Below, in pieces: positions 134 through 45,008 of a stretch of 45,008 nt of DNA (the first letter of the stretch is position 1; every line of letters begins with the position of its first letter). The notes under the pieces are model-generated. The model did not search any database. It was not told the origin of the DNA and worked only from the letters and a program-made list of their open reading frames with translations. The stretch is taken from the IMG/VR virus record IMGVR_UViG_3300029169_000006, positions 1 through 45,008 of that record; one strand, written 5' to 3'. The position numbers and the translations under genes were made by a program. The DNA comes from a virus. Its lineage: Duplodnaviria; Caudoviricetes.

Positions 134-175
134 TTTGTTTCGGCCGTTGAACCAAAGGCAGAATGAGCGTATTGT

Positions 176-250
176 ATAAAGAAAGCCCCCAAGCGGAAAT
201 GACTACGCAAGGGGGCTTGAATCTGGTTAGCTTTCAAGGGAGAACCAGGA
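176..250 (-). ncRNA. Putative OOP-like small antisense RNA (about 75 nt)
   Basis: Minus-strand promoter at 256-283, then hairpin CTGGTT/AACCAG (223-248) and terminator-like AAGCCCCC/GGGGGCTT (183-218) followed by TTTCTTTAT on the minus strand. Confidence 0.45.
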
Positions 251-255
251 CACAA

Positions 256-283
256 ATGCTACCACAACATCTTGTGTCTTCAA
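256..283 (-). promoter_or_regulatory. Putative leftward sigma70 promoter
   Basis: TTGAAG-16nt-TAGCAT with an extended -10 TG; overlapped by inverted repeat GACACAA/TTGTGTC (249-278). Confidence 0.45.
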
Positions 284-313
284 AACCCCTTTACCGCAAC
301 CAGCGGTGTTTTA

Positions 314-481
314 GGTATTTAGGTTGTTTTATTGGTGGTTCACAAAGGGTGCCGGTAGGTAAACCGGTTGGAGTCCAATTCACCCTGCTGAGGCGGCTGA
401 ACCGAGTATTGCGAAAGCATGTGTGGGAAGCCAACGAAAAGCTCACACCAGCGTTCCACCAACTAAAGCAACTTATCTACC
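314..481 (+). ncRNA. Structured RNA unit C closed by the conserved long stem
   Basis: GGTATTTAGGTTGTTTTATTGGTGG (314-338) pairs with CCACCAACTAAAGCAACTTATCTACC (456-481) using G-U pairs; internal helices AGGGTG/CACCCT, CCGGT/ACCGG, TGC-GAAA-GCA, GTGTGGG/CTCACAC. Confidence 0.7.
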
Positions 482-499
482 GAGTCAGTTCGACCGTAT

Positions 500-648
500 A
501 TCAAACTGTTTTGATGGTGACTATGGGCTAGCTGCGTTAGTACCAGCCGTACTTGGGACTAAGCCCCATGAGGCTCGCAACTTCATAGTCGTTGATCGAT
601 CACGGCCTCTTAAAGCTGTTGCGATAGTCACCACTAAAGCAGTTTGGT
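500..648 (+). ncRNA. Structured RNA unit D closed by the conserved long stem
   Basis: ATCAAACTGTTTTGATGGTGACTAT (500-524) pairs at 24 of 25 positions (incl. G-U) with ATAGTCACCACTAAAGCAGTTTGGT (624-648); internal GGGCT/AGCCC, AGTAC/GTACT, ATGAGG/CTTCAT. Confidence 0.72.
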
Positions 649-661
649 TTAACCCAAACCC

Positions 662-837
662 GACACGTATCGGCGCGATAACGTTCCGTGTCTAAGACAG
701 TAGCCCCAACCAGGTCGAATCTCTGTTGGTCTTGGGGTTAGAAGGATAAGTCAGGGATGCTCTATACGGCTCTACAAGCCTCTGAGGTGGCAGGTCGTAG
801 CAAGATTTAATGACTACATGTGAGTCAGGGTCTTGCT
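662..837 (+). other. Series of further hairpins in non-coding DNA
   Basis: GACACG/CGTGTC (662-692), TAGCCCCAA/TTGGGGTTA (701-740), AGCAAGATT..TGACT/AGTCA..GGTCTTGCT (799-837). Confidence 0.55.
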
Positions 838-43592: not shown

Positions 43593-43890
43593 TTTGGACT
43601 TCGGTGATTTTTGCCTAATAGAACAACATCGCTACGGATGCGAGAACGAAATGTATTTGCATAAGGTCATCAATCGACTGAACTCAAATTCATACGTAAC
43701 GGTTCCTGTTGATTCTGGTAAGGCTGGCACCAAGCATATTATGGGCGAGATGACTGAGGTTGTGAGTTGTATCTGTTGTGGGCTTCAGGAAACAGAGGTT
43801 CGTAAGTACAGGGTAGTAGATGTTAAGCCAAACAACGCTTTCAGAGAATCAGGTAGGGTAAATTTTAACGAAGATAGAATTGAGCCGTAA
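43585..43890 (+). CDS. Hypothetical protein
   Basis: AGGAGG RBS before ATG 43585. Confidence 0.7.
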   Translation: MSDLDFGDFCLIEQHRYGCENEMYLHKVINRLNSNSYVTVPVDSGKAGTKHIMGEMTEVVSCICCGLQETEVRKYRVVDVKPNNAFRESGRVNFNEDRIEP

Positions 43891-43892
43891 TA

Positions 43893-43955
43893 TGTCGGGC
43901 GCAGGGGATCATGGTCCCTTGTTACAACAACACCTTATCGGATGGGTGTCTGACA
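43893..43955 (+). other. Hairpin cluster at the start of the non-coding region
   Basis: TGTCGGGC/GTCTGACA around GCAGGGGAT/GTCCCTTGT; an alternative ACACCT/GGGTGT helix overlaps the outer 3' arm. Confidence 0.5.
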
Positions 43956-43975
43956 GAATAAATCCGGTGGCTCAG

Positions 43976-44077
43976 AGTGTTTTGATTTGGTGGTCTGTCG
44001 ATGAGGTTTGATTCCAACGGACGGCAGCGCAAGCTGATACGCGGGTAGACAGTATCGGGCCACCAACTCAAAGCATT
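43976..44077 (+). ncRNA. Structured RNA unit A closed by the conserved long stem
   Basis: AGTGTTTTGA-T-TTGGTGGTC pairs with GGCCACCAA-C-TCAAAGCATT; inside CAGC-GCAA-GCTG tetraloop, GATAC/GTATC, CTGTC/GACGG. Confidence 0.72.
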
Positions 44078-44150
44078 AGGAACAGGAACTTTTAACTTTA
44101 AGAGGACAGGACAATGACACAGGCCGGGGGAAAGCCTCGGCAGCAATGAG

Positions 44151-44276
44151 AGTGTTTTGATGGTGGTTCAATCGTGGCCTGTAACATGGTGCAGAAGCTC
44201 GTCTTAGCGAGGCGGGCAAAGGCCGGGTGTATAGACCGGATATGCGATGGCAGCGCCTGGCCACCTTCAAAGCATT
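44151..44276 (+). ncRNA. Structured RNA unit B closed by the conserved long stem
   Basis: AGTGTTTTGA-T-GGTGGTT pairs with GGCCACC-T-TCAAAGCATT; inside CTCG/CGAG and CCGG/CCGG hairpins. Confidence 0.7.
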
Positions 44277-44337
44277 GGCAGTGAGGTAACAAAGGCTACG
44301 GCCCTTTCAGGTTACGGCTTGAATAGCCTCTCTGCCA
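44276..44337 (+). other. Additional stem-loop with UACG tetraloop
   Basis: TGGCAGTGAGG/CCTCTCTGCCA enclosing TTCAGGT-TACG-GCTTGAA. Confidence 0.5.
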
Positions 44338-44356
44338 TCTTAACGGGAGAATAACG

Positions 44357-44854: not shown

Positions 44855-44983
44855 AACAGATGTTTGTTTGTGGTTTGGAGAGATGGGAGTCGCCGTTTAC
44901 CCCAACGATGATTCTGTGCATATTTTAGAGCTGGGGGGCTCAGACACCACCATCACAGAAGCCGAAATGGAAAGGTGTCTGCG
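44850..44983 (+). CDS. Hypothetical protein spanning the circular junction (continues to TGA at 164-166)
   Basis: VKTDVCLWFGEMGVAVYPNDDSVHILELGGSD...VEPKAE reads through the end overlap. Confidence 0.55.
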
Positions 44984-44990
44984 AGGCTGG
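44858..44990 (+). repeat. Terminal direct repeat, right copy
   Basis: Matches 1-133. Confidence 0.97.
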
Positions 44991-44991
44991 G

Positions 44992-45008
44992 GATCGTGAC
45001 TGGGAAAC
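44992..45008 (-). other. Library artefact: random-amplification primer tag
   Basis: GATCGTGACTGGGAAAC is the reverse complement of GTTTCCCAGTCACGATC (round A/B, SISPA-type primer). Confidence 0.9.

What the first reader, a model, noticed from the sequence alone, without database searches (positions are those of the whole stretch)
314..648. Second pair of conserved-stem RNA units (C and D) with CACCA at the 3' arm
Seen: unit D pairs at 24 of 25 positions (500-524 with 624-648) and unit C over about 23 positions (314-338 with 456-481). Both carry the TGTTTT..TGGTG / CACCA..TAAAGCA signature of units A and B. The inner helix runs GGTG...CACCA in three of four units, reminiscent of a tRNA acceptor stem with CCA, and units A and B contain T-loop-like GGTTTGATTCC and GGTTCAATC. 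None folds into a canonical cloverleaf by eye. Inference: the cargos might be tRNA mimics or degenerate tRNA-derived RNAs.
Basis: partly seen in the sequence, partly recalled or inferred. Interest (0 to 1): 0.8.

Follow-up and report, generated by a model that had tools for sequence, protein, structure and literature searches.

The report
Translated array of swappable RNA cassettes
The two stems are modules of a phage cassette row in which relatives keep the closing stem and its slot but swap, add or drop the enclosed sequence while mostly keeping one reading frame open across it; the stem resembles phage lambda's leader stem, so the host enzyme RNase III likely cuts out small RNAs, and these two passed no tRNA test.

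Summary
The pairing is confirmed: D pairs at 24 of 25 positions and C at 23. With units A and B across the circular junction, they belong to a family of about 40 distinct units in uncultured phage and metagenome contigs, with a ~20-bp closing helix, compensatory changes outside my search patterns, and unrelated cargo. The helix fits the E. coli RNase III recognition boxes, and the lambda N-leader stem shares its motif. C and D occupy slots in a conserved scaffold: relatives fill slot D with other cargo or leave it empty, and four lack C. Unexpectedly, one reading frame stays open through the cargo in 5 of 5 slot-D relatives found by DNA pattern, with amino acids kept only where the RNA is kept. 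ORFs 163-531 and 423-695 are its two out-of-frame halves. The tRNA reading is weak for C and D: CACCA is paired, relatives mostly have CACCU, and no tRNA test was passed, though about 10% of family cargoes carry a T-arm. Best reading: RNase III-excised small-RNA cassettes in a translated spacer. No cut, RNA or translation was observed.

The parts
314..484 (+). Cassette C: 171-nt module in slot C; closing helix 314-338/456-481; predicted RNase III cuts after 332 and 464 (132-nt product)
   Evidence: Absent at this site in L001, L046, L028 and L206; slot-C arms with other inserts in P0008, P0025 and P0028; cuts predicted
500..648 (+). Cassette D: closing helix 500-524/624-648; predicted cuts after 514 and 635 (121-nt product)
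   Evidence: Same flanks with unrelated cargo in L001, L046, L028, L004 and L206; empty site in L026 and L042 and in P0033 and P0035
163..313 (+). Conserved upstream scaffold: hairpin at about 183-218 and the stretch leading to slot C
   Evidence: BLAST matches to L028 (163-225) and L001 (238-313); alignment
485..499 (+). Scaffold between slots C and D (5' flank of slot D)
   Evidence: 91% identical over 485-519 to L001, L046 and L028
649..667 (+). 3' flank of slot D; one base longer than in relatives
163..531 (+). 5' half of the read-through ORF; its start overlaps the stop of ORF 44850-166; runs through C and stops inside D
   Evidence: alone it finds only itself, but it aligns with the ORF family
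423..695 (+). 3' half of the read-through ORF, in the -1 frame; covers the 3' arm of C and all of D
   Evidence: C and D lie in one frame in P0025 and P0028
43974..44079 (+). Unit A, same closing helix; predicted cuts after 43985 and 44069
44149..44278 (+). Unit B, family-consensus closing helix; predicted cuts after 44160 and 44268
   Evidence: its outer pairs have probability near 0 in the +-150 nt ensemble
44858..44990 (.). 133-nt repeat of bases 1-133; the genome is circular, so A, B, C and D lie within about 1.5 kb
   Evidence: in run X2 one contig runs from 44990 straight into 134

Best explanation
C and D are exchangeable cassettes in a phage early-operon scaffold, each a conserved closing helix around unrelated cargo, and the helix is likely cut on both strands by host RNase III to release end-paired small RNAs of about 132 and 121 nt, while a reading frame kept open across the slots in relatives likely lets ribosomes cross the region. 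Shown: the pairing, its covariation, cargo swap, slot gain and loss, the fit to published RNase III boxes, the shared motif with the lambda N-leader stem, and the open frame. Inferred: the cut itself; that the cargo acts in trans as a regulator or decoy, with different targets in different phages; that translation of a low-constraint peptide prevents premature Rho termination and hands ribosomes to the next gene, competing with cleavage; and that swapping runs by recombination at the short conserved arms. In this phage the frame is broken inside cargo C and after D.
For: Covariation outside the search patterns: 126 of 150 outer positions paired against 78 in shuffles (maximum 98 of 10,000), 102 of 116 inner positions against 66 (maximum 81), G.U 40 against A.C 2. 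RNase III fit: in a register with proximal-box pairs G.U or G-C, A-U, A-U, A-U, distal-box position 2, never part of a pattern, is U.G in 21 and C-G in 6 of 29 distinct flanks (30 and 8 of 41 units). PMC1540722 reports a stringent U.G requirement there, PMC6212723 a G preference at positions J and A upstream of the first cut, and the T7 R1.1 hairpin has the same 4-bp spacing. The lambda N-leader stem has the same core motif around 109 nt, and my register puts its cuts at +88 and +197, which agrees with the sites as I recall them. Slot-D cargoes are unrelated (9 of 10 pairs reached by 12 or more of 200 shuffles). The frame is open in 5 of 5 DNA-found slot-D relatives, with slot lengths all multiples of 3 (P about 2e-5, times 1/81; post hoc). 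23 of 47 related ORFs carry both slot-D arms in frame around 20 different inserts. In the arms, variable sites fall 6, 3 and 2 on codon positions 1, 2 and 3, with 1 synonymous against 10 non-synonymous codon pairs.
Against: No RNA end, expression or translation data. The proximal-box bases were fixed by my patterns, so they are not an independent test. Distal-box position 1 is the canonical U-A in only 9 of 29 flanks. D has U-A at distal position 2 and an A.C mismatch between the predicted cuts; C has a mismatch or bulge there; lambda lacks the distal U.G. The inner half-site has an inhibitory G-C at proximal position 2 in 33 of 41 units, so nicking or binding without cutting is possible. Cargo interiors are barely more structured than shuffles (median z -0.48; 3 of 43 below -2), and no cargo was found conserved between distant phages, which is what neutral filler would also show. 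Family-wide the open-frame excess is small (30 of 44 against 22.9, 10 of 500 shuffles; antisense 30 against 26.7). The protein hits were selected for being open, and the five DNA-found relatives are related to each other. This phage itself breaks the frame.
Confidence: 0.58

Rival explanations
1. The helices are cis-acting RNase III processing or decay sites that segment or tune the early mRNA, as in the lambda N leader or T7 early RNA; the enclosed sequence is neutral filler that is discarded.
For: Weak cargo structure; no conserved cargo across distant phages; the unit is on the strand of the nearest annotated genes in 15 of 17 loci (read); lambda precedent; a cut inside an ORF would make a non-stop message, as recalled for arfA.
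Against: A short hairpin would serve this purpose, yet the enclosed stretches are 70-194 nt; units come in tandems of 2-4; some cargoes keep T-arms; in L010 and L024 the unit is antisense to the neighbouring recombination genes.
Confidence: 0.22
2. One reading: the cargoes of C and D are tRNA mimics whose 7-bp inner helix works as an acceptor stem; a cut at G1 with a 2-nt overhang would leave an end that could be completed to CCA.
For: Inner pairing is 34 of 36 through position 7 and then falls (27, 22, 20 of 36); G at position 1 in all 6 units found without selecting on GGTG, apart from a re-find of L023; L058 scores as a tRNA with a tetraloop in place of the anticodon loop; T-arms in 4 of 43.
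Against: C and D have no T-arm or D-arm in register and no tRNA call, permuted or not; CACCU in 28 of 40; GGTG itself is replaced in 4 of those 6 units; D-arm motifs are not enriched (16 against 10.5, maximum 20); RNase III needs about 22 bp, which explains the inner helix without tRNA (PMC3867540).
Confidence: 0.1
3. The ORF is a real protein gene that tolerates or uses in-frame palindromic inserts (like the recalled Rickettsia palindromic elements), the inserts encoding hypervariable peptides.
For: Frame kept through unrelated inserts, start coupled to the upstream stop, in-frame empty sites; 46 ORFs found by profile.
Against: Conservation follows bases, not amino acids; frameshifts upstream in L001 and L028 and twice in this phage; no PHROG family for 18 of 18; predicted model pLDDT 51.8, pTM 0.12, no secondary structure, from a shallow 18-row alignment and so weak evidence; A, B and many units have no long open frame.
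Confidence: 0.07
4. The helices act as single-stranded DNA hairpins (replication or recombination signals) or as antitermination sites rather than as RNase III substrates.
For: Units often sit near replication and recombination genes; strand asymmetry would also fit single-stranded DNA; short direct repeats bound slot D.
Against: The distal U.G and the spacing match an RNA enzyme's rules; boxA-like motifs are not enriched on the sense strand (5 against 10 of 40); no N-like gene among the 65 ORFs scanned.
Confidence: 0.03

Closest known systems
Phage lambda N-leader RNase III stem (pL transcript, between nutL and N)
   Same: Same core helix motif (GYUUUG..GGUG paired with CACC..AAAGC), encloses 109 nt, lies in an early operon; my register gives +88 and +197. 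That lambda's N leader is RNase III-processed rests on a citation seen in PMC5371410; the positions, the pL start and the name boxC are recalled.
   Different: Lambda has one copy behind nutL in an untranslated leader and lacks the distal U.G. Here there are four copies, no nut or N found, fixed slots with cargo swap and empty sites, and an open frame through the cargo in relatives.
T7 early-RNA RNase III sites (R1.1) and the E. coli proximal/distal box rules
   Same: Box identities and the 4-bp spacing fit the outer helix (PMC1540722, PMC6212723).
   Different: R1.1's upper stem is closed by a tetraloop and releases no long cargo.
DicF sRNA of the Qin prophage dicBF operon
   Same: [quoted passage not shown]
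   Different: RNase III makes the 5' end of the long DicF form; no shared clamp or array is described in the passages read.
rRNA precursor stems
   Same: L039, the end of a cellular rRNA operon, carries D's arm motif around a 5S rRNA gene.
   Different: One case in 33 metagenome hits; the cargo is a fixed essential RNA; it may be convergence on a processing site.
tRNA and tRNA-like RNAs (tmRNA tRNA-like domain, YrlA)
   Same: 7-bp G-initiated inner helix; T-arms in a minority of cargoes; weak tmRNA-like hit in L054 (19.7 bits, below the cut-off of 47).
   Different: C and D show no cloverleaf parts; no free CCA; no Rfam family at gathering or E-value thresholds.

Membership tests
RNase III double-cleavage stem | Helix of about 20-22 bp, at least 11 bp on the box side | tested here: met
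   Positions K to I' paired in 36-41 of 41 units except the single mismatch (units were filtered on pairing); C 23 bp, D 24 bp
RNase III double-cleavage stem | Proximal box G-C, W-W, A-U, W-W | tested here: inconclusive
   Fits (G.U 39, G-C 2 at position 1; A-U at 2-4), but these bases were fixed by my patterns
RNase III double-cleavage stem | Distal box U.G at position 2, U-A at position 1 | tested here: met
   U.G in 21 and C-G in 6 of 29 flanks; U-A in 9 of 29. Met in A, B and C, not in D
RNase III double-cleavage stem | No antideterminant in the second half-site | tested here: not met
   G-C at D' in 33 of 41; PMC1540722 says one box set is enough to specify a site
RNase III double-cleavage stem | rnc-dependent cuts with 2-nt 3' overhangs | not testable with these tools
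   Needs end mapping or in vitro cleavage
Lambda-type N leader | nutL (boxA, boxB) upstream and N gene downstream | tested here: not met
   No N-like hit among 65 ORFs; one 1-mismatch boxA-like motif, inside cargo D; the units are not in the leftward operon
tRNA / tRNA mimic | T-arm stacked on the acceptor stem | tested here: not met
   0 of 4 window units; 4 of 43 in the family, 3 of them near register
tRNA / tRNA mimic | Cloverleaf or permuted tRNA call | tested here: not met
tRNA / tRNA mimic | Unpaired 3' NCCA, encoded or added | tested here: inconclusive
   Not encoded (paired; CACCU in 28 of 40); post-transcriptional addition not testable
Any Rfam 15 family | Score at or near the gathering threshold | tested here: not met
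Protein-coding gene under purifying selection | Synonymous excess and a conserved domain | tested here: not met
   1 synonymous against 10 non-synonymous in 16 codons of 5 sequences (small sample); no PHROG or Pfam family
Protein-coding gene under purifying selection | Reading frame maintained across indels | tested here: met
   5 of 5 DNA-found slot-D relatives; not in this phage

The most novel reading that the evidence does not exclude
Temperate phages carry a modular small-RNA expression array: a scaffold with several fixed slots, each taking a lambda-leader-type RNase III clamp with captured cargo (tRNA pieces among them), under selection to stay stop-free so that ribosomes run through the whole row. 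Translation and RNase III then compete, switching the transcript between an intact early message and a set of end-protected RNAs used against host defences or regulators, and phages diversify the set by cassette exchange.
Probability: 0.33. Interest if true: 0.86.

Novelty: new variant of a known kind. Interest (0 to 1): 0.7.

Why it matters
RNase III stems in phage transcripts are textbook. A slot-based, exchangeable array of them with a reading frame held open through arbitrary cargo was not found in my ten paper searches or in Rfam. If right, it points to a large unannotated pool of phage small RNAs with predictable ends, recasts the lambda N-leader stem as one member of a cassette family, and identifies a class of 'hypothetical proteins' (46 found by profile) as by-products of a translated RNA array. 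The predicted cut sites make it testable with purified RNase III.

Tried and rejected
tRNA, permuted tRNA and Rfam searches on the window: nothing. BLAST of the regions against annotated phages and plasmids: only short chance matches. ORF 423-695 against protein representatives: two weak hits to repeat proteins, judged spurious. Sequencing runs: no RNA holder listed. ESM Atlas: no usable hit, which shows nothing. Antisense targets of the cargoes in the phage's own genome: nothing longer than 12 nt. Promoter scans near the units found no start of their own. Pattern scan with a 60-90 nt gap and CACCA: 0 hits. GTDB genome scan: 1 hit, L063, judged a chance match inside a coding gene. Scan for the slot-D 5' flank: 3 of 9 loci real, all known. 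Scan without GGTG: 3 real of 95 distinct matches, covering 53 of 64 parts. The strict pattern finds no unit in lambda, T7 or Shewanella phage ZP9, and one unexamined match in the phage with the closest capsid. Rows dropped: L053, L063, L055, L113 (chance) and L039 (5S rRNA); still contains L039, L053, L055 and L063, one search contains L113, and one search also left out the longer L065 unit. Integron attC and terminal-inverted-repeat readings were considered from recall and rejected by eye (core-site order wrong; G.U bias; cargo not conserved). Two searches for a paper giving the lambda cut positions found none.

Full report
Setting. The window is a complete circular phage genome: bases 1-133 repeat at 44858-44990, and in run X2 one contig passes from 44990 into 134 (both runs are from one study and may be the source). 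It has a P22-type head module, a Cro-like gene, NinG, HNH and a Q-like gene. The best capsid match is a Pseudoalteromonas phage at 52%, then Sf6/HK620 types, so a gammaproteobacterial host with RNase III and Rho is inferred. Units A (43974-44079), B (44149-44278), C and D lie within about 1.5 kb on the strand of the rightward early genes.

Observation. The counts are right: 24 of 25 pairs for D and 23 for C, with z-scores of -4.24 and -2.43. A profile of the outer helix made from other phages ranks C, B, A and D first on the genome, D only just above the shuffle maximum. The T-loop-like words in A and B do not form T-arms.

A family. Pattern scans gave 4, 22, 2 and 7 viral loci, 33 metagenome loci and 1 genome locus, reduced to about 40 distinct units. 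Positions outside the patterns covary: 126 of 150 outer positions pair in 30 distinct flank sets against 78 when partners are shuffled (maximum 98), and 102 of 116 inner positions against 66 (maximum 81). G.U outnumbers A.C 40 to 2, fixing the strand. Neighbours found without selecting on the core show compensatory changes within it (L026, L042). The units sit among replication, recombination and nin genes, on the strand of the nearest annotated genes in 15 of 17 loci (read), often in tandem. Cargoes run from 70 to 194 nt, share no similarity beyond close kin and are hardly more structured than shuffles.

What the helix looks like. PMC1540722 (passages and sections 10-12, 15 and 22 in part; figures not seen) defines an 11-bp helix with a 4-bp proximal box and a distal box needing U.G at its second position. 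T7 R1.1 shows 4 bp between the boxes. In that register the family has U.G in 21 and C-G in 6 of 29 distinct flanks at a position no pattern fixed, and G at positions J and A of the 5' arm, as PMC6212723 (passages) reports for in vivo targets. The lambda N-leader stem has the same core motif around 109 nt, and the register gives cuts at +88 and +197, matching my recall of the published sites; I could not confirm the numbers in print. Against: the proximal bases were pattern-fixed, D and lambda lack the distal U.G, C and D are imperfect between the cuts, the inner half-site usually carries an antideterminant, and B's helix is outcompeted in a wider fold.

Slots. D shares both flanks with L001, L046, L028 and L206 and the 3' flank with L004, each with unrelated cargo. 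L026 and L042 have the site with no unit. C is a 171-nt insertion absent from four of these relatives, and L004 has a different unit in tandem.

The open frame. In all five DNA-found slot-D relatives one frame runs stop-free through the cargo and the slot length is a multiple of 3 (P about 2e-5 from cargo shuffles, times 1/81; post hoc, related genomes; L206 was found after I noticed the pattern). The first start codon overlaps or abuts an upstream stop in the window, L206, L046 and L004. A search with L046's ORF gave 21 proteins and a profile search 46. Of 47 held, 23 carry both slot-D arms in frame around 20 different inserts of 22-58 residues; P0025 and P0028 carry slots C and D in one frame; P0033 and P0035 show slot D empty in frame; further slot types are visible. 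These hits are selected for being open. ORF 163-531 and ORF 423-695 are the 5' and 3' parts of this frame, out of register inside cargo C, with one extra base after D. Conservation follows bases rather than residues, upstream frameshifts occur, no family is hit and the model is unfolded, though from a shallow alignment. Family-wide the excess of open frames is small, so this is a property of this scaffold.

tRNA. L058 is scored as a tRNA with the inner helix as acceptor stem, 4 of 43 cargoes have T-arms, and L004's second unit shows one by eye, so tRNA pieces do get captured. C and D fail every test, and CACCA is paired and usually CACCU.

Mechanism. Most likely RNase III cuts each clamp and frees a small RNA with paired ends, while translation of a low-constraint frame carries ribosomes over a row that would otherwise be a long untranslated stretch. 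The cut, the products, their targets and the role of translation are inferred.

Literature. Ten searches found no description of this family. I also read passages of PMC3867540, PMC11780869, PMC5371410, PMC10690425, PMC12197685, PMC8632103, PMC6524683 and bioRxiv 10.1101/2023.04.14.536235; PMC6212792 is a 1,569-character item under the same title as PMC6212723 and held none of my terms. The supplement of PMC10690425 (10,006 candidate viral RNAs) was not opened and could hold the motif; the supplement of PMC6212723 had no lambda or phage entry; bioRxiv supplements were closed. Earlier AI notes of this scan describe similar clamp-and-cargo stems in other phages; they are leads, not support, and none of those listed mentions a frame held open through the cargo.

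Verdict. Real, and a new variant of the lambda-leader type RNase III stem; not a tRNA mimic by any test run. Interest 0.7.

Noticed in passing
L039 448-568: A cellular 5S rRNA gene behind a 23S end is enclosed by the same arm motif as unit D, in a long perfect stem.
   Followed up: partly
L016, L029, L037, L054, L058, L064, L065, L032 (flanks of the units): A second scaffold type with its own conserved upstream element and downstream hairpin. In L016, L029 and L065 it lies just before what appears to be the C-terminal part of a replication-initiator O-like gene, in frame in L029 and L065. The upstream element recalls primase-recognition hairpins (from memory); L003 has a Betaproteobacteria-1 RNA about 700 nt from its unit.
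   Followed up: partly
L006-L025 group (e.g. L010 4001-4084, L024 4001-4088): Short units antisense to the RecE/RecT genes, followed by further conserved hairpins; possibly a stand-alone transcript. No promoter found.
   Followed up: partly
window 423-445: The two ORFs overlap in cargo C, where an A-run with an upstream purine stretch could allow a -1 shift joining them; the frameshift motif is recalled and untested.
   Followed up: no
L002 and L023 (one contig, G001): One unit on each strand about 6.4 kb apart, pointing away from each other.
   Followed up: no
L201, just after nutL: In lambda a 9-mer identical to the family's 3' arm lies directly before the 5' arm of the N-leader stem and can pair with it as an alternative hairpin.
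   Followed up: no
window 43890-43975, 44280-44340, 700-745: Further hairpins flank the units; no Rfam match.
   Followed up: no
window 41668-4731 (through the junction): No replication-initiator or helicase gene was recognised in the rightward early operon among the ORFs scanned.
   Followed up: no
window 44991-45008: The last bases depart from the circular sequence and look like a library primer (recalled).
   Followed up: no
L047 886-958, L031 1-67: A tRNA-Met gene lies close to the unit in these two contigs.
   Followed up: no
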